Source: Escherichia phage JLBYU19. From it: DNA of 49,897 bases. Below the pieces are notes generated by a model. The model saw only the letters and a list, made by a program, of their open reading frames with translations. It was not told where the DNA came from and ran no database searches. The DNA lies in sequence record OK272489.1; one strand, given 5' to 3'. Below, piece after piece: positions 1-49,792 of this stretch (within the stretch, counting starts at the first letter, position 1; every line of letters begins with the position of its first letter). Made by a program: the position numbers and the translations under genes.

Positions 1-1
1 T

Positions 2-931
2 TTATAGCAGTGATTCGGGCTTGTAGAGTTTTCTTTCTACGCCCTGTTTAAAATTATCGTTAACAGGCATCATTATGTCAAGCCCTCTTTCCTCTGCCGC
101 GATTATCACATCACGATCATCTTTCCGGCAGACTACGCGCATTCTTCTTTCTCCTTTATATCTATGCGCAACCATTTCAAGATTTGAAGGAGTAAAACAG
201 GCCCACACCTCTTGACCAGTTGATAAATGAACATGCTGAGAATCAACCCAATCAAGGCACAAATAGATCGTCTTATCTGTACTACCTGTTTTAACAACAG
301 ATCCGCGCGTGTAGTCGCGAGCTAAAAACCAATCCTTTCCATCCTCATCAATGAAAAGCACGTTACACATTTCATCATCCAGCCCGTCATCATGCACCAG
401 GTGACAAGGTAGCGCGTGAATGTATCGACCATCCTTGACGCCGCAATCATAATGACAATCTTCCGGCGGATATATCCCCTCATAAACGCTTAAAGGTGTG
501 CGATCGAATTTTAATGTTTTTGCCATCACTTTTTCGCAACATTCATGACTTGCCTGTTTCCCGAACGAGTAACCAGAAGAACGCGAAGCGCGTTTGTTTG
601 CTCTGATCCTGTAATCTTGTGGCACTTTTCCGAGGAAGCGGCCCAAAATGTTGATGGCCTCGCTGTAAGGTTCGCCAGTTAATTTCATTAACCAACCGAT
701 CCCCGTGTCGTTGCCGCACACGTTGCAGATCGCGCCGCCGTCGCCCTCTTCATTTAGCTTATCAGTCCATCTAAAACGATCCTTACCGCCGCAGTGTGGG
801 CAAGGCTGATGCTTTTTGTTGAAAACATCGCTATGCAGCCCGCAAATGCTGTGTAGTGCTTCACGCCATAACCCCTTCATATATGGCAAAACATCTTCTT
901 TCTGATAGGTCATAAAGTTTTCAGTATTCAT
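2..931 (-). CDS. DNA primase (zinc-ribbon + TOPRIM-like)
   Basis: 309 aa from ATG 931 (GAGG RBS); N-terminal CPHCGGKDRFRW zinc-binding motif typical of phage/plasmid primases; track ORF extension to 1009 lacks RBS. Confidence 0.75.
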   Translation of the reverse strand: MNTENFMTYQKEDVLPYMKGLWREALHSICGLHSDVFNKKHQPCPHCGGKDRFRWTDKLNEEGDGGAICNVCGNDTGIGWLMKLTGEPYSEAINILGRFLGKVPQDYRIRANKRASRSSGYSFGKQASHECCEKVMAKTLKFDRTPLSVYEGIYPPEDCHYDCGVKDGRYIHALPCHLVHDDGLDDEMCNVLFIDEDGKDWFLARDYTRGSVVKTGSTDKTIYLCLDWVDSQHVHLSTGQEVWACFTPSNLEMVAHRYKGERRMRVVCRKDDRDVIIAAEERGLDIMMPVNDNFKQGVERKLYKPESLL

Positions 932-986
932 GGCAAACCTCAATAAAAAAGCCCAGCAAATATTATCATTTCGCTGGGCCTTATCA

Positions 987-1463
987 TTAGCTATTCGTGC
1001 TGTTATCACCTTTGTAGAATCTTCCGCCTGGTTCGTAGTCTGAATTTTTGACTACGCGCAACATTTCGTATTTGTCGCAACGGGTAGTAAGAGGCTTGCC
1101 GTTAGAATCAAACCGCAGATCTGGACGACAAAACGAGGCGCGGTATCCTTTGCATCCATTATATTTGTAGTCGTTATGCACCTTTTGTGCTCCAGCGGCT
1201 GAAATCATACCACGCTTTCGCCATTGGTTAACGACTTGCTGAGATACGCGCAGACGTCGAGCCATAGCAGGAACACCGCCGTAATACTCGATCAGAATGT
1301 CAAGGCGAGATTTCAGGCTTGCTTTTACCTCATCTCGCAGGATAAGAAATCCGGTTCGGTGTTTTCGTGGCTTTTTGTCTTTACCTCGTCGCGTTCCGTT
1401 GTTACCGTTAATAGTGCGCTTGTCGATCTCACCCGTAGATACTGCAATTCGTGCATCTTTCAT
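987..1463 (-). CDS. putative HTH DNA-binding protein
   Basis: 158 aa, basic; RRLRVSQQVVNQWRKRG helix-turn-helix-like segment; GAGGTGA RBS; divergent from helicase gene. Confidence 0.5.
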   Translation of the reverse strand: MKDARIAVSTGEIDKRTINGNNGTRRGKDKKPRKHRTGFLILRDEVKASLKSRLDILIEYYGGVPAMARRLRVSQQVVNQWRKRGMISAAGAQKVHNDYKYNGCKGYRASFCRPDLRFDSNGKPLTTRCDKYEMLRVVKNSDYEPGGRFYKGDNSTNS

Positions 1464-1474
1464 CTAGTCACCTC

Positions 1475-1494
1475 ATAGCATTTTTTGTTAAAAC
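1475..1494 (+). promoter_or_regulatory. conserved junction element (variant ATAGCATTTTTTGTTAAAAC)
   Basis: TTGTTA at 1485-1490, TATTAT 22 nt downstream (1513-1518); precedes helicase gene. Confidence 0.55.
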
Positions 1495-1550
1495 AGTTTA
1501 TTGTAATGAGTCTATTATATACTCCAAATGGCATTTTTTAAAGGTTTAAG

Positions 1551-3548
1551 ATGATTCCAAATATCGAAAAACAAATATCAGCGTTAGGCGAGGCAGTAAT
1601 AAAAAGCATCCAAGAGCGATTCACGGTTGGCAATATAGTGCCTTATCCTTATCAGTGCGTTGCGTATGCCGAGATCGCAAAGCGCATGAAAAACTATGAG
1701 CATCCTTTCTTCGTTAAGGCTTCTGTGTCGGCTGGCAAAACTTTGATGTTTGCGATGGTTGCGGCGCAATGCCGCAAGATGGGATTGAAAATGATGGTCC
1801 TTGCTCGCCAGGCTGAAATTGTTGATCAGGATTCAGAAGAGATCAGCAATCTTGGCGTGCCAAACTCAATCTATTGCGCCGGACTGAAAACAAAAAGCGC
1901 ATACTTTCCGATCGTAGTCGGTTCTGAGGGCACTGTAGTAAACGGATTGTTTAAGTCGTTAGGTGATTATGTTCCGCACGTTATCGGTATTGATGAATGT
2001 CACCAGGTGGATTGGGAGGATCTCGCTGATGCGATAGAAAATAATGAATCTTACCAGCAGATGACCACTAAGAAGGATTTACCTGTACTGATTGGAGAAG
2101 AACAGCAATTTGATTCCAATGGCGATCCAATGTTCGGAACAGGGCGCACACAGTACACCGTAATAATCATGGAAATGATGCGCAGGTGTCGCGAGGCATA
2201 CGGGCACGAATTGCGAATATTCGGTATGACTGGATCTGAGTTTCGCGGCGTGGTTCCAATACTGGTTGAAGATAAGAACAAAAAGGGATTCTGGCGTGAG
2301 CAGGTGACTAACATAGACACAAACTACTTAATCAAATTTGGTTCTGTAGTGCCAACAAATTTCGGCGACGTAGGCGACCTGGGGTATGACCTTTCAGAGT
2401 TCGAAGCCAGTAGCGAGGATGGCGTTTCAGACTTTGACGCTAAAACATTGCGCAAGATGGAAGAAAAGATCCATCAAGACGCAACAATGACACAGAAAAT
2501 CATGGCTAAAGTCCATGAGATATGCAAAGACAGGAACGGAGTTTTAGTTACATGCGCAGGGGAAAGACACTGCAAGGAGGCCGCCGCCGCACTTCCGCCA
2601 GGCGTTGAATACAGGATCATAACTGGCAAGACTGGAGACAATCAGCGTAAAGAGTGGCTGAGGGAGGCATACGAGGGAAAAGTAAAATACATCTTCCAGG
2701 TACAGGCGCTTACCACTGGCGTTAACGTTCCGTTTTGGGATACTTCTGTAATACTGAGAAAGATAGGTTCTCTAACATTGCTTATCCAGCTTTTGGGGCG
2801 CGGTATGCGACTGCTTAAGCAATGGCACATTGAGCAGGGATTCAAGAAAAAAGATCATCTTGTATTGGATTTTGCCGGTACTATGGATGAGTTAGGGGAT
2901 TTGTATTTCGATCCAATCCTTGAGCAAGCGCAATTCCAAAAGAGATTTACAAACGGGAAAGAGCCTAAGACTTGTCCGATATGTGGAACGCTAAACAGCT
3001 TTTACGCTCGCCGATGTATGCACGTAGACGATAACGGGAAGAGATGCGAGCATTTTTGGACTTACAGAATTTGCGAGGACCAGGTAGATCCGAGAACGAA
3101 AAAGATAATCAAGCGCGGTTGCGGAACAAAAAACGACGTAGTGGCGAGAGTATGCCGTTGTTGCGATATTTCTCTTGTCGATCCTAACGAGAAGTTAAGC
3201 GGCAAGCACTACACCAAAAACGATTGGTGCAACGTTAAATCTTTCCGCGTTGATATGACGAAAAACCAGAAAGGAATTGTTTTTTGCTATGAGCTTGAGG
3301 CCAACGGCGACACATTCAAGGCATACGAAAGATTTTTCCCTGAGTCAGAAAGCAACATTTGCCGGACGATATGGAGAAAAATAGCATTGCAGCACATACC
3401 GGATCGCAAGGTTGCTGGTATGGTGGCGAGCTATAGAAATGCGCGTAAAATAATGTCATACGCTCATCACATCATGCCTCCTGTACGCGTAACGCATCGC
3501 AAAAACGGCAAAGGTGAGGATAACATTGCAAAACGGGAGTTTGTTTAA
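1551..3548 (+). CDS. SF2 DNA helicase (DEAD/DEAH-box) with C-terminal zinc-ribbon region
   Basis: 665 aa; Walker A-like SVSAGKT, motif II GIDECHQV, several CxxC pairs in C-terminal third. Confidence 0.85.
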   Translation: MIPNIEKQISALGEAVIKSIQERFTVGNIVPYPYQCVAYAEIAKRMKNYEHPFFVKASVSAGKTLMFAMVAAQCRKMGLKMMVLARQAEIVDQDSEEISNLGVPNSIYCAGLKTKSAYFPIVVGSEGTVVNGLFKSLGDYVPHVIGIDECHQVDWEDLADAIENNESYQQMTTKKDLPVLIGEEQQFDSNGDPMFGTGRTQYTVIIMEMMRRCREAYGHELRIFGMTGSEFRGVVPILVEDKNKKGFWREQVTNIDTNYLIKFGSVVPTNFGDVGDLGYDLSEFEASSEDGVSDFDAKTLRKMEEKIHQDATMTQKIMAKVHEICKDRNGVLVTCAGERHCKEAAAALPPGVEYRIITGKTGDNQRKEWLREAYEGKVKYIFQVQALTTGVNVPFWDTSVILRKIGSLTLLIQLLGRGMRLLKQWHIEQGFKKKDHLVLDFAGTMDELGDLYFDPILEQAQFQKRFTNGKEPKTCPICGTLNSFYARRCMHVDDNGKRCEHFWTYRICEDQVDPRTKKIIKRGCGTKNDVVARVCRCCDISLVDPNEKLSGKHYTKNDWCNVKSFRVDMTKNQKGIVFCYELEANGDTFKAYERFFPESESNICRTIWRKIALQHIPDRKVAGMVASYRNARKIMSYAHHIMPPVRVTHRKNGKGEDNIAKREFV

Positions 3549-3967
3549 TGGCTATAACTGATAAAGGCGATTATCTTGAGTTTTACGAAAGGGATCCAAC
3601 CGACACGAGAAGGGAAGTTAATCACCAGATAGATAGTTTTCAGTGGTTGACTTATGCTCATCCTTATTTGCTGGCGTGGCATACGGTAAACGAGAATGAG
3701 AAGTCTAAAGCAACGGCGATGATTGATCAGCAGTCCGGCTTGGTTAAGGGAGTAAGCGATTTCATCATCCTGATTGGTTTAAACGGAAAATACCCCTTTG
3801 CAGCGATTGAGATCAAACGAGTGAATAAATCAGGCAAGGGGAAAGCATCACCAGTCAGCGATGAACAAAAGGCTTTTTTGCGTCGCGTTCGCAGCTTAGG
3901 AGGATTCGCTGCGGTAGCCTACGGATTCAATCAGTTTAAGTTGGCTATTGAATACATGCTTAAATAG
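3548..3967 (+). CDS. VRR-NUC-like nuclease (PD-(D/E)xK)
   Basis: 139 aa; VSDFIIL...IEIKR core; start overlaps helicase stop (TAATG). Confidence 0.6.
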   Translation: MAITDKGDYLEFYERDPTDTRREVNHQIDSFQWLTYAHPYLLAWHTVNENEKSKATAMIDQQSGLVKGVSDFIILIGLNGKYPFAAIEIKRVNKSGKGKASPVSDEQKAFLRRVRSLGGFAAVAYGFNQFKLAIEYMLK

Positions 3968-3982
3968 CACTTTTTGTTAAAA
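3963..3982 (+). promoter_or_regulatory. conserved junction element AATAGCACTTTTTGTTAAAA
   Basis: exact consensus; contains stop of upstream gene; CATAAT at 4002-4007, 22 nt after TTGTTA. Confidence 0.6.
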
Positions 3983-11816: not shown

Positions 11817-12333
11817 GATTTTTATGATACCCCAATTCATTCTCGGCTTTACGTTTTGCGGCAACAGCATCTCCAAAACTGGAGAAACAACCTATATAAA
11901 TCCTACTTCCTCGCTTTCCGCTTCCAACCCTTACAATCCACTTGCCATGTTTATTTTTATGCACACCTGGCATGCCACTTGTATTGTTTTTCTGCTTTGA
12001 TGTGTTTCGCATATTTCCTTTGTGATCTTTTAACTCAAAGTTTATTGCTCTGTTATCAGTCGTAATGTGATTTACGTGATCAACCTCCATTCCTTCCGGT
12101 ATAGGCCCATAGTGCATTTCATAGCATATTCTATGAACTTTCAGGTTATAACGTTTTCCGTTTACAGTAAGTGCGGTTTCTAAATATCTGCCACCACTAC
12201 CCAAAGAGCCAACCTCATTACCAGCATTACAAGCATTCCATTGTTTAACTCTTGATTGGTGAATATCTTTTCTTTCTTTCCAGAACAGCTTTCCGGTTTC
12301 TGGATTGTATGTAAAGTAATCGTGCCAATTCAT
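11806..12333 (-). CDS. HNH homing endonuclease with AP2-type DNA-binding domain
   Basis: 175 aa; HNH motif EVDHVNHITTDNRAINFEL; C-terminal AP2-like GVHKNKHGKWIVRV...YIGCF; GAGGT RBS. Confidence 0.75.
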   Translation of the reverse strand: MNWHDYFTYNPETGKLFWKERKDIHQSRVKQWNACNAGNEVGSLGSGGRYLETALTVNGKRYNLKVHRICYEMHYGPIPEGMEVDHVNHITTDNRAINFELKDHKGNMRNTSKQKNNTSGMPGVHKNKHGKWIVRVGSGKRGSRIYIGCFSSFGDAVAAKRKAENELGYHKNHGK

Positions 12334-12341
12334 TCATTACC

Positions 12342-12566
12342 TCAAAACGGAAAACAGCGCGGACAACCAGGATCGAAATCGCATCCACAATCATTAACAA
12401 TCATATTGGGATCTGCAAATATTGCGCTTGATTCAAGATCCATATCCATATCACCTAAAGCCTCATCAAGAGTCTTAATTTTATATGCCACTTCAAGCGC
12501 CGCCTCTTTATTTAGTCCGGCATCTTCTGCCATTTGAAGGCGCTCAAAAAAACCGTCCTGACTCAT
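12342..12566 (-). CDS. hypothetical acidic Cys-cluster protein
   Basis: 74 aa, strongly acidic, C-terminal CGCDFDPGCPRC. Confidence 0.45.
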   Translation of the reverse strand: MSQDGFFERLQMAEDAGLNKEAALEVAYKIKTLDEALGDMDMDLESSAIFADPNMIVNDCGCDFDPGCPRCFPF

Positions 12567-12679
12567 CGCATAATCTCCTTAATAACAACCAAGATAATAG
12601 CCAGGCCAGCAGCAGTAACCAAAAAGCCAGCCGCGCCAATAATCGAATAAAAAAAGAAATCAATAGCTTTATCCATCAT
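12563..12679 (-). CDS. hypothetical small membrane protein (not in ORF track)
   Basis: 38 codons MMDKAIDFFFYSIIGAAGFLVTAAGLAIILVVIKEIMR; GAGGTGA RBS; stop overlaps next start (ATGA). Confidence 0.4.
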   Translation of the reverse strand: MMDKAIDFFFYSIIGAAGFLVTAAGLAIILVVIKEIMR

Positions 12680-12689
12680 TTTTCACCTC

Positions 12690-12714
12690 ATTTAAAAGGC
12701 GGCAAAACGCCGCC
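12690..12714 (-). terminator. intrinsic terminator (minus strand)
   Basis: GGCGGC-aaaa-CGCCGCC stem followed on minus strand by TTTTAAA. Confidence 0.5.
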
Positions 12715-12721
12715 AGATTAA

Positions 12722-12949
12722 TTAAAGAGCGCGCCAACTTTGAATATAGAAAGCGTTTTCTTCCAGTAATTCTTTTAACTGATCTTTATTGTATTTGCGC
12801 ACCTTACCGCCTGGATGGATACCAATAAGATAGCCGCCTTTGCCCTCGGTGATAGTGATTTGGCTAATTCCGCAGGACTTATCAAGTTTTACAGCCACGC
12901 GGTGATGAGCGTCAATAGTTGCCATAATGTTTAAAACTTTTGCTTTCAT
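12722..12949 (-). CDS. hypothetical protein
   Basis: 75 aa ORF followed by intrinsic terminator 12690-12714. Confidence 0.45.
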   Translation of the reverse strand: MKAKVLNIMATIDAHHRVAVKLDKSCGISQITITEGKGGYLIGIHPGGKVRKYNKDQLKELLEENAFYIQSWRAL

Positions 12950-13057
12950 TTAAATATCCTCAATTGAAATATGAATGACGTGGCGCTCTTTTTCCGTCGC
13001 CGCCGTAATGGTCATTTGCAACCGCTACCATCCAGGCATTTTTGAAAATAAATAGCC

Positions 13058-13270
13058 TCATTTCTTATTTTTTAGCTTAAATTTATGACCTGGAACACCA
13101 GCGCCAATATACCCATCGTTGTATTCCATTAAATAAAGGTGAAGACCATTATCTGAAATTAAATGAGGATCTTCTTTGATATTTCCCATTAGCGGGTATT
13201 CTTTTCCGCGCGTAAATTTCCAAATTGAGTTATAAGTTTCTACGCATTTAAGTTTTAATTGCTTTGCCAT
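13058..13270 (-). CDS. hypothetical protein
   Basis: 70 aa ORF in co-directional early array. Confidence 0.4.
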   Translation of the reverse strand: MAKQLKLKCVETYNSIWKFTRGKEYPLMGNIKEDPHLISDNGLHLYLMEYNDGYIGAGVPGHKFKLKNKK

Positions 13271-13551
13271 TATGCGATCCCAGTTACGTTAAAACTTACA
13301 GCCCTTGTTGCGCTAAATACATAAGCATCAACAGCGCCGCCAAATACACGAATTTTACCCTGGCCGTACTGCGCATTCATATTTCGCCAAACCGTTCTAT
13401 TAGAGCAGAATGCGCTACCAGTCTTAATAAGCGTATCCATCTCTTTTCTTAGATCGCGATAGTCAAGCCAGAATCTAAAGGCACGCTGTTTAATTCGCGC
13501 CGCCTTGATTTTTTCTCTTGCGCTATTGAAATCATTCTTTTCGTATGCCAT
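13270..13551 (-). CDS. hypothetical protein
   Basis: 93 aa, basic; single-nucleotide stop/start overlaps with neighbours. Confidence 0.45.
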   Translation of the reverse strand: MAYEKNDFNSAREKIKAARIKQRAFRFWLDYRDLRKEMDTLIKTGSAFCSNRTVWRNMNAQYGQGKIRVFGGAVDAYVFSATRAVSFNVTGIA

Positions 13552-13748
13552 TAAATGATCTCCATGTATGTTTCAAAGCCATTTAACTTGAACAGGCCGT
13601 TTTCACATTTGCGCACGTTCCAAGTTAGCCCTGAGTGGTACGCCTCCATATCATCAAGGTCAATGGTGATTTCAGCACCTTTCTTAAACAAGCCTTTTTC
13701 GTGAGACTTGTCGCGCTTAACAACTTTAACATCAACCTGATTTTCCAT
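13551..13748 (-). CDS. hypothetical protein
   Basis: 65 aa from ATG 13748 (GAGGA RBS), directly downstream of junction element 13805. Confidence 0.5.
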   Translation of the reverse strand: MENQVDVKVVKRDKSHEKGLFKKGAEITIDLDDMEAYHSGLTWNVRKCENGLFKLNGFETYMEII

Positions 13749-13804
13749 CTTTAAATCCTCGCTTGTTGTCGATGGGTGTAATATACCATTCAGGCGCACA
13801 TCGT

Positions 13805-13824
13805 TTTTAACAAAAAGTGCTATT
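13805..13824 (-). promoter_or_regulatory. conserved junction element (minus strand)
   Basis: exact consensus; TATATT 22 nt downstream; conserved leader shared with copies at 14311 and 15615. Confidence 0.6.
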
Positions 13825-14110
13825 CAACAACTTTTCCAGTTAAAGAGATAAGTTGCCTTGTAATCTTGTGGCGGCGATACTTACGCGCAACAACAGGAAG
13901 GCTTTCACCGCTTTGATGGCCAAAGCAGATCGGCAATTCACCTTCAAGGGAGCGGAAGCCACCAAATTCAAGATCCCGCACTGGCTTCGTGCGCCAGGCT
14001 TCAATAAATCCGCGCTCGTCACGAGTGATATAGCGGTATATGTTCGGGAGGGGCAATTGTATCCCCTCAAAATCCACGGTATCGGTATAGCTATAAAACT
14101 TAGAACTCAT
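13820..14110 (-). CDS. hypothetical protein
   Basis: 96 aa from ATG 14110; stop inside junction element; track N-terminal extension to 14161 rejected. Confidence 0.45.
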   Translation of the reverse strand: MSSKFYSYTDTVDFEGIQLPLPNIYRYITRDERGFIEAWRTKPVRDLEFGGFRSLEGELPICFGHQSGESLPVVARKYRRHKITRQLISLTGKVVE

Positions 14111-14252
14111 AGTCAACAACTCCAAACTCATTGACGATTTGGGCCTTGTAGAAGCCGCCATTTTTCGCCAGGTTGTAACAAGCGGCTACGGTTTCAAATT
14201 CGCGCGCTTCCGGCTGGCTGTTTTCGTGTTCCCAGGTAATCAGAGTAACCAT
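14100..14252 (-). CDS. hypothetical small protein (not in ORF track)
   Basis: 50 codons; GAGGA RBS; first ORF after junction element 14311; overlaps next start by 11 nt. Confidence 0.4.
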   Translation of the reverse strand: MVTLITWEHENSQPEAREFETVAACYNLAKNGGFYKAQIVNEFGVVDYEF

Positions 14253-14310
14253 TTTCAAATCCTCGCATTCGTTGTCGATGCGTGTAATGTACAGGAATGC
14301 GAGGATTGAG

Positions 14311-14330
14311 TTTTAACAAAAAGTGCTATT
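14311..14330 (-). promoter_or_regulatory. conserved junction element (minus strand)
   Basis: exact consensus; TACATT 22 nt downstream. Confidence 0.6.
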
Positions 14331-14593
14331 TAGTCCAGGAATTCGATTTCACGCTCTCCAGTTAACGGATCTACAAGCCAGAATCCGAGCGGTTCGTCGC
14401 GAACACCTTCATAGAATCCAAGCGCCGCCAGATCTTCACCTTTAACGAATACCAGGTTTCCGCTACGGCTTACGTGAGAAACGTTAACGATAACCGGAAA
14501 TGTGCGATCCTTAAATGCAGGCCGCAGGGCGTAACATCCGTTGTTGAGCAAACGTGCTTTGCGCTTAACTGGAATAGGTGCATTAATTTTCAT
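14330..14593 (-). CDS. hypothetical protein
   Basis: 87 aa; AAGGAG RBS; stop adjacent to junction element. Confidence 0.5.
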   Translation of the reverse strand: MKINAPIPVKRKARLLNNGCYALRPAFKDRTFPVIVNVSHVSRSGNLVFVKGEDLAALGFYEGVRDEPLGFWLVDPLTGEREIEFLD

Positions 14594-14605
14594 GGTTATT
14601 ACTCC

Positions 14606-14818
14606 TTATCGTAAAGATTTAAAGACGTATAGTTTATTGCGGTAACTATATATCCGCATTGTTATTTCTCGCAGTGCAATATATTCCTTCCTGTTTTCCG
14701 GCAGACTGGCGAGCAATAACAGGCAGTATTTATAAGCGCGGTCAAGATTCCTTTCCGTGCCCCTGCAATATCCCTTGTTGCGCCTGGAGCGGTACAGCCA
14801 TAACAATTTCTTGAACAT
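14606..14818 (-). CDS. hypothetical protein (uncertain)
   Basis: 70 aa Arg-rich ORF from ATG 14818, 2 nt after upstream stop; no clear RBS. Confidence 0.25.
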   Translation of the reverse strand: MFKKLLWLYRSRRNKGYCRGTERNLDRAYKYCLLLLASLPENRKEYIALREITMRIYSYRNKLYVFKSLR

Positions 14819-14819
14819 T

Positions 14820-15029
14820 TCAGATACGCCCATACAGATCACAGACTTCGTTGATAAAATTGCTTTGCGCCCCTTTGTTGTCACGCTCAAGAATTGCGCG
14901 GCATTCAAACTTATGATTATGCACGATGACTACAACCATGTTTTCAGGCATTGAGCGGTTATAGCGTTGCGCATCAGTGATTAAAACATCCATACCCATC
15001 TCATGTGCTTTCTTGATCACATCCAACAT
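14820..15029 (-). CDS. hypothetical protein (paralog of 15017..15283)
   Basis: 69 aa from ATG 15029 (AGGAG RBS); C-terminal NFINEVCDLYG resembles DFINDVCLLQ of neighbour. Confidence 0.45.
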   Translation of the reverse strand: MLDVIKKAHEMGMDVLITDAQRYNRSMPENMVVVIVHNHKFECRAILERDNKGAQSNFINEVCDLYGRI

Positions 15030-15283
15030 TTTTTCTTCTCCTGCAATAAGCAAACATCATTGATAAAATCAGCACGGCCCTTAATGTTGCTGATGTGGAA
15101 CGTCTTTTCAGCGTACAGGCCATCACCTTCAATCACGATCATTACGCGAGTCGGTTTATTCACGGTCGCACACGAAAAGAGTGGTCGCACCGGAAGAAAT
15201 TTAGTAGCCACACCCAGGTTAGCCCTGGCGGCCCTGCAAAATGCCTCCGCCAGATCCAAATCATTTTCGGTAATCACCGCCAT
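15017..15283 (-). CDS. hypothetical protein (paralog of 14820..15029)
   Basis: 88 aa; GAGGAG RBS. Confidence 0.45.
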   Translation of the reverse strand: MAVITENDLDLAEAFCRAARANLGVATKFLPVRPLFSCATVNKPTRVMIVIEGDGLYAEKTFHISNIKGRADFINDVCLLQEKKKCWM

Positions 15284-15555
15284 TACTTCTTGATCTCCTC
15301 ACTGATAAATTTCAGCACCTGACGCAAGAAAACCTCGTTGTTGATAGTCGCTGGCAATTCTTCTTTCACTTCTTGCGGCAGATAGATATTGCCGTGCCAG
15401 GTCAAGCAATCGTAGTTGATACGATAAGAGCAAAGCCACTCGCAATCGTTATCTGCTTCCCAAATGCAGAGTTGCAGAACATCGCCAAAATCTTCAACAG
15501 TCAGATCCAGACCGTGACGCTTAGCGAAATTGAAAGTGGTTTTGCTGATGTTCAT
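15283..15555 (-). CDS. hypothetical protein
   Basis: 90 aa; AGGAG RBS; first gene after junction element 15615. Confidence 0.5.
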   Translation of the reverse strand: MNISKTTFNFAKRHGLDLTVEDFGDVLQLCIWEADNDCEWLCSYRINYDCLTWHGNIYLPQEVKEELPATINNEVFLRQVLKFISEEIKK

Positions 15556-15614
15556 TGCTATCTCCTGAGCGGTTCGTTTCGATGTGTGTAATGTACCCGA
15601 TCAGACGGCCTGAG

Positions 15615-15634
15615 TTTTAACAAAAAGTGCTATT
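15615..15634 (-). promoter_or_regulatory. conserved junction element (minus strand)
   Basis: exact consensus; TACATT 22 nt downstream; faces away from AT-rich control region. Confidence 0.6.
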
Positions 15635-15663
15635 TGACGGTTAGCGCCAGGATTGTGATCGAA

Positions 15664-15753
15664 ATAATCAGAAGTAATCATTCGTAATCAAATCACGTCA
15701 AAATGATGATTGCCTTTGCAAATTTGATGAGAAAAGTAATCACGTTTAATCAT
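15664..15753. repeat. iteron-like short direct repeats (A/G)TAATCA
   Basis: ATAATCA 15665, GTAATCA 15674, GTAATCA 15684, GTAATCA 15736, TTAATCA 15747; first three spaced 9-10 bp. Confidence 0.5.
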
Positions 15754-15936
15754 TGGTTGCAGGGGAGATAGTGAAACCTTCCCCTCTTGCCTCACTTTTC
15801 CGCCTGGCTGTCAGTGGTTGTTGTCTTTTGTTCACCCCTGTTACCGATTTCAGGCGGCGTGTTTCCGCGCGGTTTTCCGGTGTAGCGAAAACGGAAAAAA
15901 CAAAAAAAATCCTATATAATACATTGAAAATAAAGA

Positions 15937-16075
15937 TTATTTATTTATATATATCTATAATGTTTTCTTTTTGTTCTCACTGTTACAGTGCTTTTTGTTG
16001 GGTGTGGTGTGGTTGTGTGTTGGTATATATGGATAGTTGCGCGCGCGGCGGATTGCATATGTATATATACTTTTT
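15937..16075. repeat. AT/GT-rich block homologous to 43926-44060
   Basis: TTATTTATTTAT(A/G)TAT... then TTGTTTT(C/T)TT.., GT-rich GGTGTGGTGTGG, ATGTATATATAC; same order in both copies. Confidence 0.55.
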
Positions 16076-16188
16076 CCGGCGGATTGCGTTAACAGCGTGA
16101 ACAGAAAAATAACAGCCCTGAAATCAACAACTTGCGCATGATTTTGTAGTTTTTCGATATTGGTAACGTTTTGAATACAACAAAAACA

Positions 16189-16216
16189 TTGACACGCACC
16201 AAATAGCTTTTATAAT
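16189..16216 (+). promoter_or_regulatory. sigma70-type promoter (consensus hexamers)
   Basis: TTGACA 16189-16194, 16-nt spacer, TATAAT 16211-16216; 32 nt upstream of ATG 16248. Confidence 0.6.
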
Positions 16217-16247
16217 GCGCCAACAGTCAACAACTGGAGGAAAGGAA

Positions 16248-16712
16248 ATGGAACAGAAGACCACTAAGGACTATTGCGATTGGCTTCGCGAGCTTGGTCG
16301 CCGCATGGCTAGTGGCGATATTGAAGAGTATAAAATGTCACTAATTGACCTGGCCGGAATGTTAAGCGGTGACGACTGCTACAAGATCACGCGCAGTTCA
16401 TCCTACAGCCGGACCATTATCAACCGCGTTCCAGAAGTAAGGGCCGCAGGTCGGGTAAGTATCAAGGTCGAGGAAACGGAAGATGATAAATTTTACGTTT
16501 TCCGCATGGTGCGCGAATCAAAAAGGAAAATCATCACACCCGAAGAATTGCCAGCAATCAAGGCAAGGGCGATCAAAAAGTTTGCCGATCGCTTACTGGC
16601 AGCAATCCCGAACATCGTTGACCTGGAAGGGGATAAACTGGCTGGAGCTTGTGAGGGCGTAAGCCGCTACCAGGATATGATCCGCGAAATCATCAAAGAG
16701 GAGGAGCAATAA
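16248..16712 (+). CDS. hypothetical early protein
   Basis: 154 aa from ATG 16248 (GGAGGAAAGG RBS), directly downstream of consensus sigma70-type promoter. Confidence 0.5.
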   Translation: MEQKTTKDYCDWLRELGRRMASGDIEEYKMSLIDLAGMLSGDDCYKITRSSSYSRTIINRVPEVRAAGRVSIKVEETEDDKFYVFRMVRESKRKIITPEELPAIKARAIKKFADRLLAAIPNIVDLEGDKLAGACEGVSRYQDMIREIIKEEEQ

Positions 16713-16837
16713 TGAAAAAGGCATTAATCGGCGTTTTGGCGGCAATGACACTCCTGAACGGCGGCGAAGGCACTAAGGTTATGGCACACGCTATGGTAAT
16801 GGCTGAATTTGAGGAAGTGAAAGATGAAAACAAATAA
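16712..16837 (+). CDS. hypothetical small protein (not in ORF track)
   Basis: 41 codons with hydrophobic N-terminus; GAGGAGG RBS. Confidence 0.3.
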   Translation: MKKALIGVLAAMTLLNGGEGTKVMAHAMVMAEFEEVKDENK

Positions 16838-17045
16838 GCGCGTCAAGCACAGGTTTACTGATAACCACGGCGACGCGATTGATGTATACAAGTTCGGCGA
16901 TCGCGTGTTTATTGATGGCACGTTTGAAGGTGGGCGTAGGCCGGATTTTAGGTCGATACTTACCGTTGACCAAGTGCGCAAGCTGGCAGATAAGTTAAAT
17001 GATCTGGCAGATGAAATAGAATACAAGCAAATCCATTTTAATTGA
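16824..17045 (+). CDS. hypothetical protein
   Basis: 73 aa; GAGGA RBS. Confidence 0.45.
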   Translation: MKTNKRVKHRFTDNHGDAIDVYKFGDRVFIDGTFEGGRRPDFRSILTVDQVRKLADKLNDLADEIEYKQIHFN

Positions 17046-20123: not shown

Positions 20124-20414
20124 ATGGCAAACAAAACTTACCGCAAACTACTGGTTAACGCTTTTGAAAACATCGCGCAGTGTAACAAGTGGAACGACTC
20201 TAAACACTCGCCAGTCACAATGAAGCGCGCAGGATTCAAAAATGCTCGTTCATGGGCGCGAGCTTTCGCAGCTTGCTATATGCCGGATGGCGGACTAGGG
20301 GTGATGAACGATTTTTTGATCAACATGATAGAGGAAGCGGCGCGAGAGGATCGACCGCTGACACAGCGAGATTTTGACGACTTCGCGCGCGATGAGCTTT
20401 ACTATCTGAGCTAA
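20124..20414 (+). CDS. hypothetical protein
   Basis: 96 aa; AAGGGGA RBS; stop inside junction element. Confidence 0.45.
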   Translation: MANKTYRKLLVNAFENIAQCNKWNDSKHSPVTMKRAGFKNARSWARAFAACYMPDGGLGVMNDFLINMIEEAAREDRPLTQRDFDDFARDELYYLS

Positions 20415-20432
20415 TAGCACTTTTTGTTAAAA
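20413..20432 (+). promoter_or_regulatory. conserved junction element AATAGCACTTTTTGTTAAAA
   Basis: exact consensus; TAAAGT at 20452-20457 within AAGGGCA/TGCCCTT dyad. Confidence 0.6.
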
Positions 20433-22539: not shown

Positions 22540-23067
22540 ATGGCTAAAAACGTTGAGCCTGCTGTAAAGGCATTAAATTTCAAAGAGTTATACAATAAAA
22601 CTTATGGCGATATTGTTACGCTAAACAACCGCCACAAGTACACGCCGGAACAGGTTTTTGATATGGCGATCCGCTATTTCACTTGGGCCGAAGAGAATCA
22701 CATCCAGGCGGCTGAAACTGCTTCCTTTCAGGGTGACGTGTACGAGAGCAGAGTTTACAAGCCTCGCGTTTTCACGGTTAACGGATTCAGCTTGTATCTC
22801 GGCGTGACTGAGGCTGCCGTAAGCAAATGGCGTAAAGAGCCTGGATTCTGCGATGTGATGGAGTTTGTTGATAAAGTAATTTACGAGCAAAAATTCCAGC
22901 TTGCGGCAAATAACATGATTAATGCTGGATTTATCGGTAAAGAGATCGGCGTAGAGAAGCCAGCAACAGTGAGCGTTGAAGCTAGCGCGGCAGCTAATGC
23001 AAGCATTGACGCAGTAACTGCCGATGAGGTGAAAGAGGCTGTTATTGATATTCTGGAGCAACTTTAA
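22540..23067 (+). CDS. terminase small subunit
   Basis: 175 aa from ATG 22540 (AAGGAGG RBS); immediately upstream of and overlapping large terminase gene. Confidence 0.55.
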   Translation: MAKNVEPAVKALNFKELYNKTYGDIVTLNNRHKYTPEQVFDMAIRYFTWAEENHIQAAETASFQGDVYESRVYKPRVFTVNGFSLYLGVTEAAVSKWRKEPGFCDVMEFVDKVIYEQKFQLAANNMINAGFIGKEIGVEKPATVSVEASAAANASIDAVTADEVKEAVIDILEQL

Positions 23068-24705: not shown

Positions 24706-25998
24706 ATGAGTGAAAAAACAAGGCTAGTTAAGGCCGATGGATACAACGAGATTTTCAAGGGCAGCAAGGGCAATGGGCGTGTGGAGTTGCCTTTCTTTAT
24801 GCAAGGGTTCGAATACACCACGCACGCTGATTTTTACATTCGCGACGGCCTAGCAAAACGAATCATCGACGTTGTTCCAGAAGAAATGGTGACGCCTGGA
24901 TTTAATATTGACGGCGTGGAAGACGAGGAAAGTTTTAGATCTTTGTGGGATGAGAAGAGACTAAACGATAAAATCATTGATGCGCTTTGCTGGTCGCGTC
25001 TTTTTGGTGGCGCTGCAATCGTAGCAATCGTCCAGGATGGCAGGTCGTTAAAGTCACCTGTAGCGCCTGGTGCAATCCTTGAAGATGTTCGCGTTTACGA
25101 TCGCTTTCAGGTTAGGGTAGAAAAGCGCGAAACTAATCCACGCAAGGTAAGATATGGTGAGCCATTAATTTACACCATTTCACCTGGTGCCGACTTGCCA
25201 GAATACCAGGTTCACTATTCGCGAGTCTGTATTATCGACGGTGAGCGGCTACCAAATCAGCGGCGTCAATCAAATGATGGGTGGGGTGAGTCGATCCTGA
25301 ATAAGAGACTTGTTGAGGCTATTTGTGATTATAACTACTGCGAAAACTTAGCAACTCAATTGTTGCGACGTAAGCAACAGGCGGTATGGAAAGTTAAAGG
25401 TCTTGCTGATCTTTGTGATGATGATGATGGTGTTAGTGCCGCACGTTTGCGACTTGCTCAAGTTGATGATGAGGGTGGCGTAGGCCGTGCGATCGGCATT
25501 GATGCGGAAGATGAGGAATATGATGTTTTAAATTCTGATATTTCTGCCGTCGATTCGTTCTTGGAAAAGAAGATGGATCGCATTGTATCTCTTTCCGGCA
25601 TCCATGAAATCATCCTCAAAAACAAGAACGTTGGCGGTGTTAGCGCGAGCCAAAACACGGCGCTTGAAACCTTCTCCAAGCTGATCGACAGAAAGCGAAA
25701 GGAAGAATACAAACCAATCCTTGAATTTCTGATCCCGTTCCTGATTCAAGAGGAAGAATGGAGTATTCAGTTTGCGCCGTTAAGCGTTCCCAGCGAAAAG
25801 GACCAGGCCGAGATCTTGAACAAGAACATTGATTCTTTGAGCAAGGCTATTGACGGTCAATTCATGGATACAGAGGAGGCGCGCGACACATTGCGAGCCA
25901 TTGCGCCTAACGTTAAACTAAAAGACGGCAATAACATTAAATTACCTGAGCAGGACGTAGAGCCGGAGCCAGGAACAACCGAGGGTAGCAATCAATGA
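24706..25998 (+). CDS. portal protein
   Basis: 430 aa from ATG 24706 (GGAG RBS); follows terminase. Confidence 0.6.
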   Translation: MSEKTRLVKADGYNEIFKGSKGNGRVELPFFMQGFEYTTHADFYIRDGLAKRIIDVVPEEMVTPGFNIDGVEDEESFRSLWDEKRLNDKIIDALCWSRLFGGAAIVAIVQDGRSLKSPVAPGAILEDVRVYDRFQVRVEKRETNPRKVRYGEPLIYTISPGADLPEYQVHYSRVCIIDGERLPNQRRQSNDGWGESILNKRLVEAICDYNYCENLATQLLRRKQQAVWKVKGLADLCDDDDGVSAARLRLAQVDDEGGVGRAIGIDAEDEEYDVLNSDISAVDSFLEKKMDRIVSLSGIHEIILKNKNVGGVSASQNTALETFSKLIDRKRKEEYKPILEFLIPFLIQEEEWSIQFAPLSVPSEKDQAEILNKNIDSLSKAIDGQFMDTEEARDTLRAIAPNVKLKDGNNIKLPEQDVEPEPGTTEGSNQ

Positions 25999-47837: not shown

Positions 47838-49792
47838 TAAACAATTTCCCCCAATTGATGATCTGTTAGTGCCTTGTGCCATATACGGAAGTTTCTAACG
47901 TGCCCGAAAAGATGACGTTCTCCCGTAGTTGTTTGTCCGCCAATCCTTATAGTAGCCGTCGATCTTATGTATCTCCATTCCGCTTTTGATTCGCTTGATA
48001 TTATGGAATTACTTACACAACAAGTATTGTAATCACTCTTTACTCTCATTCCCATGATCATCTTTTTTAGTTTCGCATTCTCGTAAACCCTTCGGTTTGA
48101 GTTACCTATGTCGCAACAAGGGAATCCGTCATTATCGCCTTCGGCAGACCCGAAAGCAAGAATTATTGCCGCTCCGGTTTGATGGCCGGATGTATCAAAA
48201 ACACGTGGCGCAGCGTTTGGCGTTATACTCCAGTTTTTATGAGCTTCCACAAGCACTGTAAACGGCAAATTGTAAAGGTTGTTTTTTATTGGCAATGTAA
48301 CCATATCGCTTGCCCTTGTTGTCGGACTTTCATTAGTTATAATGAATGATGAAGCGCAAGATCCAACCTCTACTTGAGGAGTTGTTAAATCCATAAAGCT
48401 ATTTTCATCAAAAACTTCTCCTTGTTTATTAACGACCTGTATTACCCCCCTAATGGAAGTTGATTCATCAGTAACTTTGTAAACTATTTCTGCAAAAATC
48501 CATTCCCCGTCTATGGTAGCGTTCTTTAGCACTATGTTTTTTGCGTCAACTCCAGAAGTTGCCACCCCTAAGTTATCGCAATCAATAATAGCAGAAGCAA
48601 CAGAAGATAAAGGATCTCCCTTGTCAAATCTTGCTGCAAATCTTACATTTTTCCCCTTAGCCCTAAAAGATATTGTAACTCCATCACCCTTTACAACTGC
48701 AATCTTATTTGTAGTAAGTCCAGCTATAATAGTGTAAGAGCCTACGCCACCTAAATATTCCCCTGGTTTAAATGTTGCATACTTAAACCCCCTTTCATCA
48801 GTCTTAGTTTCACCTCTTTCTAATCTTGGATTTGGATTCCATGATTCAGGCTTATTTGAATTTACAAAATAGTTTGTTCTCTGCCCTTCAATCAAAAGAC
48901 CATCCTTTTCAAATCTAGGTTCATCAATAGCAGCATCAGTAAGCAACCCAGACTTATTAATGTAAGTAGCGGTTGATGCACGTTTAAACTTAACAATCTT
49001 GTCACCTGGCATCGTGATCTCATCATCACCTATGACAATCTTTTTGTATGACGGCGAGAATCCGGTGATCATATCCAGGGAATCATTAAATGGTATCCAC
49101 ACGTCAGGTAGAGGCTGCAATAAATCTTTGTAAGGTTCTGCGGCCTGTTTTGCGTATTCCTCCGCTTGATCTCGCGCACTTTCAGCGCCTGCCTTTGCGG
49201 TGTTCGCAGCATCACGCGCAGTTTCAGCGCCTTTTCTTGCAGTTTCAGCGCCAGTCTTTGCAGTGTTTGCAGCGTCGCGCGCGGATTCAGCGGCAGCCTT
49301 TGCAGTGTCAGCACCTTTCTTGCTATTCTCTGCATTTGTTGCGCTTGTCTTTGCGTTATTCTCGCTAGTTTTAGCTGCCTTCTGGCTTGCTGCGGCTGCG
49401 TCAGCATTTGTCTTTACGTCTTCCTGGATCTTCTGTAGCTTATCCCAATCAAAATCCTTGATGATCTCAATAAATCCAGCAAACTCCGATTCCTTCCCCT
49501 GGTAATAACGCAACGTTTCCGCTACGTCTTGCGCAAGACCGTCAACCGTTAACGAGTCATGAAGCAAGATCAGGTAATTTGTCTTCTGTACTACCGCGCC
49601 TCCAGTAGTAATTGCGCGAATGCTTGTATCGCTAATCACTTCTGTAATCACAGCAGCTTGCAAAGGTTGAGCAAGAAAGAAAATAGTTGCACCTGGGCGA
49701 ATCAAGGTTAATTGCTCACGCCATTTTGTACCGTAACCAGTTACATAACCTTGCGCGTCCATAGACGCTTGGCCTTGTCTGTAAATCGCCAT
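47837..49792 (-). CDS. tail fiber protein
   Basis: 651 aa from ATG 49792 (AGGAGG RBS 9 nt upstream); Ala-rich repeat region TAKAAAESARDAANTAK. Confidence 0.65.
   Translation of the reverse strand: MAIYRQGQASMDAQGYVTGYGTKWREQLTLIRPGATIFFLAQPLQAAVITEVISDTSIRAITTGGAVVQKTNYLILLHDSLTVDGLAQDVAETLRYYQGKESEFAGFIEIIKDFDWDKLQKIQEDVKTNADAAAASQKAAKTSENNAKTSATNAENSKKGADTAKAAAESARDAANTAKTGAETARKGAETARDAANTAKAGAESARDQAEEYAKQAAEPYKDLLQPLPDVWIPFNDSLDMITGFSPSYKKIVIGDDEITMPGDKIVKFKRASTATYINKSGLLTDAAIDEPRFEKDGLLIEGQRTNYFVNSNKPESWNPNPRLERGETKTDERGFKYATFKPGEYLGGVGSYTIIAGLTTNKIAVVKGDGVTISFRAKGKNVRFAARFDKGDPLSSVASAIIDCDNLGVATSGVDAKNIVLKNATIDGEWIFAEIVYKVTDESTSIRGVIQVVNKQGEVFDENSFMDLTTPQVEVGSCASSFIITNESPTTRASDMVTLPIKNNLYNLPFTVLVEAHKNWSITPNAAPRVFDTSGHQTGAAIILAFGSAEGDNDGFPCCDIGNSNRRVYENAKLKKMIMGMRVKSDYNTCCVSNSIISSESKAEWRYIRSTATIRIGGQTTTGERHLFGHVRNFRIWHKALTDHQLGEIV

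What the first reader, a model, noticed from the sequence alone, without database searches (positions are those of the whole stretch)
15664..15753. Helically phased iteron-like repeats (A/G)TAATCA in the large non-coding region
Five copies of a 7-mer lie within 90 bp, the first three at 9-10 bp spacing. They sit between a leftward junction-element promoter and a rightward consensus sigma70 promoter, in a 690-bp stretch with no convincing ORF. This is a candidate binding array for an initiator or regulator, possibly a replication origin or early-transcription operator.
Basis: partly seen in the sequence, partly recalled or inferred. Interest (0 to 1): 0.5.

Follow-up and report, generated by a model that had tools for sequence, protein, structure and literature searches.

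The report
Phased TAATCA repeats beside the packaging cut
Five same-strand copies of TAATCA, spaced in whole helical turns, sit just upstream of the point where this T1-like coliphage most likely cuts its DNA to start packaging, so they are more probably a docking site for the packaging enzyme than a replication origin.

Summary
The repeat array is real and is not a chance feature. TAATCA occurs on the + strand at 15665, 15675, 15685, 15737 and 15747, giving spacings of 10, 10, 52 and 10 bp. It is the densest hexamer cluster in the genome, and no simulated genome reached five copies.

The window is a Warwickvirus, a T1-like phage of the Drexlerviridae. The array lies in a 692-bp non-coding region between diverging gene blocks.

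The main new evidence is that four independent GenBank records begin at exactly the homologous nucleotide. They come from four genera and two subfamilies. That nucleotide is window 15771 (…GGGGAGATA|GTGAAACC), 18 bp after the last repeat. Several more records begin within about 20 nt of it. The T1 reference record also starts inside this region, where it annotates its terminal redundancy.

Mosaic relatives show that 15637-15830 (array plus cut) is an independent module. It separates from the leftward genes and from the AT-rich block, right promoter and first rightward genes. Relatives carry a different phased 7-mer, RGAATAW, at the same place.

Best reading, at about 0.45: the array is the recognition part of the pac site, bound by the P22-gp3-type small terminase. 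Binding was not tested. Origin iterons and an operator are less likely but not excluded.

The parts
15664..15670 (+). Repeat copy 1, ATAATCA
15674..15680 (+). Repeat copy 2, GTAATCA, 10 bp after copy 1
15684..15690 (+). Repeat copy 3, GTAATCA, 10 bp after copy 2. A degenerate AAATCA follows at 15691-15696.
15736..15742 (+). Repeat copy 4, GTAATCA, 52 bp after copy 3. It reads GCAATCA in phage atuna and in metagenome contig L153.
15746..15752 (+). Repeat copy 5, TTAATCA, 10 bp after copy 4.
15760..15778 (+). G-rich tract and inferred pac cleavage point, CAGGGGAGATA|GTGAAACC, with the cut between 15770 and 15771. Records XY3, PHB17, Pocis76 and SH2 begin at the homologous G.
15637..15830 (.). 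The array-plus-cut module as delimited by recombination breakpoints. The left boundary comes from MatMar, which is about 95% identical up to 15635 and diverged beyond. The right boundary comes from atuna, which is about 97% identical genome-wide but replaced from about 15830 to 17000.
   Evidence: the 135-bp core is present at 96% identity or more in exactly 60 records
15615..15633 (-). It is one of 16 copies in the window and lies next to the array, but it is separable from the array.
   Evidence: PMC11447400
22540..23067 (+). Small terminase gene (175 aa, Pfam GP3_package PF16677, E = 3.8e-11). It is the candidate binder of the array. Binding is inferred, not shown.

Best explanation
The TAATCA array is the recognition and assembly part of the phage's pac site.

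Proposed mechanism: during late infection the ring-shaped small terminase (a P22 gp3-type protein encoded at 22540..23067) binds the five phased repeats on one face of the DNA across about 90 bp of concatemer. This positions the large terminase to make the first cut 18 bp to the right, at 15770|15771. Packaging then runs rightward by the headful mechanism.

What is shown:
- The array is real, non-random and unique in the genome.
- It abuts the nucleotide at which independent genome records of four genera begin.
- Array and cut point travel together as a recombination module.
- Relatives have a different phased 7-mer at the same position.

What is inferred:
- That the shared record starts are physical pac ends.
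- That the small terminase, rather than another protein, binds the repeats.
For: 1. Position.
- XY3 (Warwickvirus), PHB17 (Changchunvirus), Pocis76 (Hafnia phage) and SH2 (Tunavirus, a different subfamily) all start at the homologous G of GTGA/GTGT. The preceding G-rich tract sits at the other end of each record.
- Shfl1, S2_02, IME167, Henu5_2, YSP2 and KKP 3830 start or end within about 20 nt of it.
- The T1 reference starts 68 nt upstream, in the same intergenic region, and annotates 1..2800 as the repeat region.
- All these records run rightward from the cut, matching T1's packaging direction.

2. Literature. T1 and TLS package by the headful mechanism from a pac site placed in this untranslated region, but its sequence has not been defined (PMC7718038; PMC11447400).

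3. Uniqueness. There is only one TAATCA cluster in about 50 kb. None of the other 15 direct-repeat promoters has more than 2 AATCA/TGATT motifs in its 150 nt upstream, against 7 here.

4. Modularity. MatMar breaks homology exactly at the left edge of the module, and atuna breaks it about 60 bp right of the cut.

5. Same place, different motif. In MatMar, pSf-1 and T1 the genome's densest RGAATAW cluster lies at the homologous site, as TTATTCC and GGAATAA copies at 9-10 bp spacing; vojen and SH2 show the same motifs there by eye.

6. The phage has a gp3-family small terminase.

7. From memory, not tested here: phased repeats spanning about 9 helical turns fit models in which DNA wraps around an 8-10-mer small-terminase ring. 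They also fit the repeat-based pac and cos sites of SPP1, P1 and lambda.
Against: - No binding or cleavage data exist for this phage. The cut point rests on where depositors chose to start their records; I could not read their methods or raw reads.
- The array lies wholly on the side of the cut that is not packaged in the first headful. This is acceptable for an SPP1 pacL-like role, but it differs from lambda cosB.
- The co-occurrence test does not discriminate. The 60 records that carry the array also have the small terminase at 98% identity or more (I matched the two lists by eye). The Cro-like regulator shows the same count, 60 records at 99% or more, which I take to be the same clade.
- T1, MatMar and pSf-1 share the RGAATAW motif although their small terminases differ from one another about as much as from the window's. 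There is therefore no clean covariation between terminase and motif.
- Natural variants are too similar to show selection on the cores: 1 of 13 variable sites falls in a core, against 2.9 expected, P about 0.18.
- There is no significant similarity to the P22 pac 22-mer.
Confidence: 0.45

Rival explanations
1. The array is a set of binding sites for a phage transcription regulator acting on the divergent early promoters. The regulator could be the Cro/YdaS-like protein at 987..1463 or an early protein. The array would then be an upstream activator or architectural site for the leftward direct-repeat promoter.
For: - The array starts 30 bp beyond the upstream end of the leftward promoter element, in a divergent control region.
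- The phage encodes a helix-turn-helix-like protein that related records annotate as a transcriptional regulator.
- That protein has one window-specific change (T to V) in the putative recognition helix.
- It shows the same 60-record count as the array.
Against: - The repeats are direct, not palindromic.
- They do not overlap either core promoter and lie about 440 bp from the rightward one.
- No TAATCA occurs in the regulator's own 96-bp promoter region.
- None of the other 15 direct-repeat promoters has such an array.
- MatMar keeps the leftward promoter and genes at about 95% identity with a different array, so the promoter does not depend on it.
- The Pfam hits for the regulator fall below the curated cut-offs.
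Confidence: 0.2
2. The repeats are origin iterons, that is, binding sites for a replication initiator.
For: - The region is non-coding, between diverging gene blocks, and at the cumulative GC-skew minimum.
- An AT-rich block conserved across the family lies 140 bp to the right, at 15893-15960.
- No origin is known for T1-like phages.
Against: - The repeats are 7-mers at 10-bp spacing, not 17-22-bp iterons.
- No initiator gene is adjacent; the neighbours are a DUF7174 protein and small proteins of unknown function.
- The GC-skew switch is equally explained by the switch in transcription direction.
- atuna keeps the array but has the AT block and its flanking repeats replaced, so the two are not co-adapted.
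- A better iteron candidate exists next door: TGTTCAC(C) copies flanking the AT block, identical to the type-1 ori repeat annotated in phage P4.
Confidence: 0.1
3. The repeats are sites for a host DNA-binding protein. Candidates are an OmpR/PhoB-type response regulator that reads 10-11-bp direct repeats (the CpxR box GTAAA-N5-GTAAA resembles GTAAT-N5-GTAAT; this is from memory) or a nucleoid protein that bends the DNA.
For: - The exact 10-bp direct-repeat geometry.
- The resemblance to response-regulator boxes, which is recalled from memory and was not tested.
Against: - The motif is confined to one 60-record clade, and other coliphages with the same host have another motif at this position.
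- There is no IHF consensus in the array.
- A-tract phasing is not exceptional, ranking only in the top 10-17% of windows.
Confidence: 0.08
4. The array is a non-functional local duplication (slippage) product that persists in one young clade.
For: - The array is known only from a clade that is 96-100% identical here.
- Substitutions do not significantly avoid the cores.
- Copies 1-2 and copies 4-5 form a 24-nt repeat pair at 75% identity.
Against: - Whole-turn phasing of all five copies across a 52-bp gap.
- Other lineages have independently phased arrays of another 7-mer at the same position.
- The array sits right next to a conserved cleavage point.
Confidence: 0.1

Closest known systems
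SPP1 pac site (pacL-pacC-pacR), bound by the small terminase G1P (from memory)
   Same: - Short repeated boxes lie about 100 bp or less upstream of the cleavage point, on the side that is not encapsidated.
- There is one precise first cut followed by one-directional headful packaging.
   Different: - The terminase family differs (P22 gp3-type here).
- The motif differs.
- No second box set on the packaged side has been identified here.
- Nothing has been tested biochemically.
P1 pac site, with 4 + 3 TGATCA/G hexamers flanking the cut, Dam-regulated and bound by PacA (from memory; the P1 genome paper was not available)
   Same: - Two clusters (3 + 2) of a phased hexamer that differs from the P1 hexamer by one base.
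- The phage also encodes a Dam methylase.
   Different: - TAATCA contains no GATC, so it cannot be controlled by methylation in the same way.
- The inferred cut lies to the right of both clusters rather than between them.
- The terminase is unrelated.
P22 pac, a 22-bp site inside gene 3 recognised by gp3
   Same: The small terminase belongs to the same protein family (Pfam GP3_package; tblastn about 30% identity to P22 gene 3).
   Different: - There is no significant match to the P22 22-mer: best 12 of 22 in the array, against a genome-wide maximum of 15 of 22 elsewhere.
- The site lies about 6.8 kb upstream of the terminase gene in non-coding DNA, and it is repetitive.
Lambda-type and plasmid-type origin iterons
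   Same: Same-strand direct repeats in a non-coding region near an AT-rich tract.
   Different: - The unit length is 7 nt rather than about 19-22 nt.
- There is no adjacent initiator gene.
- The array separates from the AT-rich tract in natural recombinants.

Membership tests
pac site of a headful-packaging phage | Lies at the physical end of the first-packaged DNA, the unique first cut | tested here: met
   This evidence is indirect. Four independent records from four genera start at the homologous nucleotide, window 15771, which is 18 bp after the array. Six more start or end within about 20 nt. The T1 reference start and its annotated terminal repeat lie in the same region. Raw reads were not examined.
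pac site of a headful-packaging phage | The phage has small and large terminase subunits and packages by the headful mechanism | tested here: met
   The small terminase matches Pfam GP3_package. The large terminase is 64% identical to that of T1. Headful packaging is reported for T1 and TLS (PMC11447400, PMC7718038).
pac site of a headful-packaging phage | Present once per genome | tested here: met
   There is a single TAATCA cluster. The next densest has two copies on one strand.
pac site of a headful-packaging phage | The small terminase binds the element specifically, and the element is needed or sufficient for cleavage and packaging | not testable with these tools
   This needs gel-shift or footprint assays and plasmid-transduction or deletion experiments.
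P1-type pac (Dam-controlled hexamers) | The repeated hexamers contain GATC | tested here: not met
   TAATCA has no GATC. The only GATC sites in the non-coding region are at 15599 and 15657.
Iteron-type replication origin | Direct repeats of about 17-22 bp bound by an initiator encoded nearby | tested here: not met
   The units are 7 nt at 10-bp spacing. The neighbouring genes encode a DUF7174 protein and proteins of unknown function, with no Rep-like domain.
Iteron-type replication origin | Functionally coupled to an adjacent AT-rich unwinding element | tested here: inconclusive
   The AT-rich block lies 140 bp away. atuna retains the array with a replaced AT-block region, which argues against coupling but does not exclude it.
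Iteron-type replication origin | Replication starts there | not testable with these tools
   This needs marker-frequency analysis or initiation mapping.
Operator of a Cro/CI-type phage regulator | Palindromic sites that overlap a core promoter and usually also occur at the regulator's own promoter | tested here: not met
   The repeats are direct. They lie 30 bp or more beyond the upstream end of the leftward promoter element and about 440 bp from the rightward promoter. They are absent from 1464-1559, upstream of the regulator gene.

The most novel reading that the evidence does not exclude
The 15637-15830 module would be the first sequence-defined pac site of the T1 family (Drexlerviridae). 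In this reading a P22-gp3-type small terminase reads an array of phased 7-mers about 20-110 bp upstream of a conserved cut (G-rich tract|GTGA). The 7-mer has been exchanged between lineages, TAATCA here and RGAATAW in T1, MatMar and pSf-1. Packaging specificity in this family would then be modular and could be swapped.
Probability: 0.35. Interest if true: 0.5.

Novelty: new member of a known kind. Interest (0 to 1): 0.35.

Why it matters
T1-like phages are common laboratory and fermenter contaminants, generalized transducers and phage-therapy candidates. Even so, the papers I could read state that their pac site has not been identified, or place it only by restriction mapping and a weak resemblance to P22.

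A nucleotide-level cut point with an adjacent candidate recognition array would give a defined fragment to test. That fragment could be used for engineering packaging or transduction, for orienting genome records consistently, and for asking how a gp3-type small terminase reads DNA.

This is not a new kind of system. Repeat-based pac and cos recognition sites are well known.

Tried and rejected
- **Co-occurrence of array and protein alleles.** The 60 records with the array also have the small terminase at 98% identity or more (lists matched by eye). The Cro-like regulator gives the same count of 60. This looks like a clade effect and does not discriminate between the two proteins.
- **Window-specific residues.** Both proteins carry window-specific substitutions. 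Uninformative.
- **Similarity to the P22 pac 22-mer.** Best 12 of 22 in the array, against a genome-wide maximum of 15 of 22 elsewhere. Rejected.
- **Intrinsic curvature from AA/TT phasing.** The array window ranks only in the top 10-17%. No support.
- **Single-strand secondary structure of the module.** z = -0.26. None.
- **Rfam.** Only two sub-threshold snoRNA hits, which I treat as chance.
- **IHF consensus.** None in the array.
- **Selection on the cores among natural variants.** 1 of 13 variable sites falls in a core, not significant.
- **DUF7174 allele against the TGTT-type repeat flanking the AT block.** No covariation; PHB17 is a counter-example. The primase and helicases are the same in the window and atuna although the TGTT motif differs.
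- **Searches that returned little.** The IMG/VR scan with an AT-block pattern returned mostly unrelated AT-rich contigs. The terminase-based locus search returned only 4 loci. The metagenome scan gave a few near-identical relatives plus chance 19-mer matches.
- **Literature.** I found no paper in the held library that defines the T1-family pac sequence or origin. The P1 genome paper was not available.

Full report
**What the window is.** The 1-kb stretch around the finding is 98-99.5% identical to many Escherichia phages: Poky, the JLBYU isolates, tonnikala, FritzSarasin and others. FritzSarasin is classified as Drexlerviridae, Tempevirinae, Warwickvirus, so this is a T1-like siphovirus. Matching T1 proteins against the window gives this map:
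- primase at 5..913 (-)
- a Cro-like protein at 987..1463 (-)
- helicases, Dam methylase and a block of leftward small genes ending at 15555
- a 692-bp non-coding region
- rightward small genes from 16248
- small terminase at 22540..23067 and large terminase from 23067

TAATCA occurs on the + strand at 15665, 15675, 15685, 15737 and 15747. Four copies fit RTAATCA and the fifth is TTAATCA. The spacings are 10, 10, 52 and 10 bp, so all copies lie on roughly one face of the helix.

In 2000 second-order Markov genomes this hexamer never reached five same-strand copies in 90 bp. It is the densest cluster of any hexamer in the real genome. In 300 simulated genomes the best cluster of any hexamer was 3 or 4. 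The consensus promoter at 16189-16216 is confirmed. It was described for phage TLS as a 21-nt repeat about 76 nt upstream of start codons (PMC11447400).

**The decisive context is a shared genome end 18 bp from the array.** In the T1 reference record the non-coding region between the last leftward gene and the first rightward gene spans the record ends. Position 1 opens an annotated 2.8-kb repeat region, which is the terminal redundancy.

Four independently deposited records begin at exactly the same homologous nucleotide:

| Record | Genus | Junction (end of record \| start of record) |
|---|---|---|
| XY3 | Warwickvirus | …GGGGAGATA\|GTGAAACC |
| PHB17 | Changchunvirus | …GAGGGGAATC\|GTGAAACC |
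| Pocis76 | Hafnia phage (Tempevirinae), Latvia | …GAGAGAGGTTGTA\|GTGACGTG |
| SH2 | Tunavirus (other subfamily) | …GAGGGAGGATCTA\|GTGTTACC |

In the window this is the bond between 15770 and 15771. Further records start or end nearby: Shfl1 and S2_02 about 13-14 nt upstream, IME167 and Henu5_2 20 nt downstream, and YSP2 and KKP 3830 roughly 10-25 nt downstream.

All of these records run rightward from this point, which is T1's packaging direction. The literature I could read says only that the pac site of T1-like phages lies in this untranslated region and is unidentified (PMC7718038). For TLS it was placed by restriction mapping and a six-base resemblance to P22 (PMC11447400). I infer that 15770|15771 is the first (pac) cut. 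This is an inference from record boundaries. I could not read the depositors' methods or raw reads.

**Array and cut form an independent module.**
- MatMar is about 75-80% identical to the window overall. It is about 95-98% identical across 12250-15635, which covers the leftward genes and the direct-repeat promoter. Homology breaks exactly where the array region begins.
- atuna is about 97% identical genome-wide and keeps array and cut, with one core change in copy 4. It has about 15830-17000 replaced, which covers the AT-rich block, the right promoter and the first two rightward genes.

The array therefore does not belong to the leftward promoter or genes. It also does not belong to the AT block, the right promoter or the DUF7174 gene at 16248..16712.

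**Relatives carry another phased 7-mer at the same place.** Between the direct-repeat element and the cut, MatMar, pSf-1, vojen, T1 and SH2 have TTATTCC and GGAATAA copies at 9-10 bp spacing, in inverted arrangement. In MatMar, pSf-1 and T1 this is the densest RGAATAW cluster in the whole genome. Copy 1 of the window (GAAATAATCA) resembles T1's GGAATAATCA, so the two arrays may share ancestry. Other lineages (PHB17/W011D, YSP2) show other local repeats, TTGCA-type and TGATT-type. A conserved position with a lineage-variable phased motif is what a fast-evolving specific protein-DNA recognition site would look like.

**Which protein binds?** The small terminase matches Pfam GP3_package, the P22 gp3 family, and is the natural candidate.

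I tried to separate it from the Cro-like regulator and could not. The 60 records that hold the array also hold the terminase at 98% identity or more (lists matched by eye). The regulator shows the same count of 60 records at 99% or more. Both proteins carry window-specific substitutions.

Indirect arguments against the regulator:
- No TAATCA lies upstream of its own gene.
- The repeats are direct rather than palindromic.
- None of the other 15 direct-repeat promoters has such an array.
- By inference, a family-wide regulator pairs more naturally with the family-wide direct-repeat element.

**Origin reading.** The cumulative GC-skew minimum falls here, but so does the switch in transcription direction. 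The repeats are 7-mers, no initiator gene is adjacent, and atuna uncouples the array from the AT-rich block.

A better origin candidate lies just to the right. The AT-rich block at 15893-15960 is conserved across Escherichia, Salmonella, Citrobacter, Klebsiella and Hafnia phages. It is flanked by TGTTCAC(C) copies at 15829 (+) and 16097 (-). The annotated P4 record shows that P4's type-1 ori repeat is TGTTCACC. The T1 record notes that its primase resembles the P4-type alpha protein. Relatives have TGTTCGC, TGTTATC or TGTTAAT in the same arrangement. I found no protein that covaries with this motif, so this stays a lead.

**Negative or neutral tests.** These were the P22 pac match, A-tract phasing, single-strand structure, Rfam, the IHF consensus and sparing of the cores among natural variants (1 of 13 variable sites, not significant).

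**Verdict.** The array is a real, statistically exceptional, clade-specific phased repeat. The best-supported function is the recognition part of the pac site next to the first packaging cut, with confidence about 0.45. Less likely readings are a regulator site (0.2), origin iterons (0.1), host-factor sites (0.08) and a neutral duplication (0.1). If the pac reading is right, this is a new member of a known kind. It would be useful because the pac site of the T1 family is undefined in the literature I could read, but it would not surprise a specialist.

Noticed in passing
16 sites in the window, e.g. 3964-3982(+), 15615-15633(-), 20414-20432(+): The family-wide direct repeat ATAGCACTTTTTGTTAAAAC fits the MarA/SoxS/Rob 'marbox' consensus AYNGCACNNWNNRYYAAAY at 13 of 14 specified positions. 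The consensus is recalled from memory. At most copies an 18-19-nt gap then leads to a -10-like hexamer (CATAAT, TATATT, TACATT, TATAGT), with no usable -35. This is the geometry of class II marbox promoters, with a forward box overlapping -35 (PMC12052159). It suggests these phage promoters depend on an activator, perhaps host Rob/MarA/SoxS or the phage Cro-like protein. The TLS paper lists other ideas but not this one.
   Followed up: partly
window 15819-16114 (AT block 15893-15960; TGTTCACC at 15829; TGTTCTC at 15972; TGTTCAC on the - strand at 16097): An AT-rich block conserved across many Drexlerviridae genera is flanked by TGTTCAC-type repeats, direct on the left and inverted on the right. 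These match the type-1 ori repeat annotated in phage P4. The motif varies by lineage: TGTTCGC in MatMar, TGTTATC in pSf-1, vojen and atuna, and TGTTAAT in T1. This is a better origin candidate than the TAATCA array. I found no protein that covaries with it.
   Followed up: partly
window 15636/15637 and about 15830-17000: Recombination breakpoints in relatives fall at the end of the direct-repeat element (MatMar) and about 60 bp right of the cut (atuna). The conserved direct-repeat elements may act as crossover points between modules.
   Followed up: partly
window 16046-16056 and 16077-16087: There is an exact 11-nt direct repeat, CGGCGGATTGC, twice and 31 bp apart. It brackets an alternating ATATGTATATATAC tract and lies between the AT block and the consensus promoter.
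   Followed up: no
window 16122-16134: This is the only IHF consensus match (AATCAACAACTTG) in the non-coding region. It lies about 55 bp upstream of the -35 of the consensus rightward promoter.
   Followed up: no
GenBank records MG0656xx ('Campylobacter phage A1xx'), seen: Fifteen to 22 records labelled as Campylobacter jejuni phages match this T1-like coliphage region and its terminase and regulator at 70-85% identity. They look like Drexlerviridae coliphage sequences and are probably contaminants or mislabelled.
   Followed up: no
L014 (pSf-1, NC_021331) 25054-25524: The annotated small terminase of pSf-1 loses all similarity to its relatives after about residue 100. This looks like a frameshift in the record.
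   Followed up: no
window, location not determined: The hexamers TTGCAG and CAGCAA each form a cluster of 4 copies within 90 bp somewhere in the genome. These are the next densest hexamer clusters after TAATCA. I did not locate them.
   Followed up: no
T1 (L007) 97-118 and 48740-48760; SH2 and Shfl1 record starts: In Tunavirus phages a second copy of the direct-repeat element, in the same leftward orientation, lies about 30 nt to the right of the inferred cut. The cut is therefore bracketed by two such elements. The window has only the left one.
   Followed up: no
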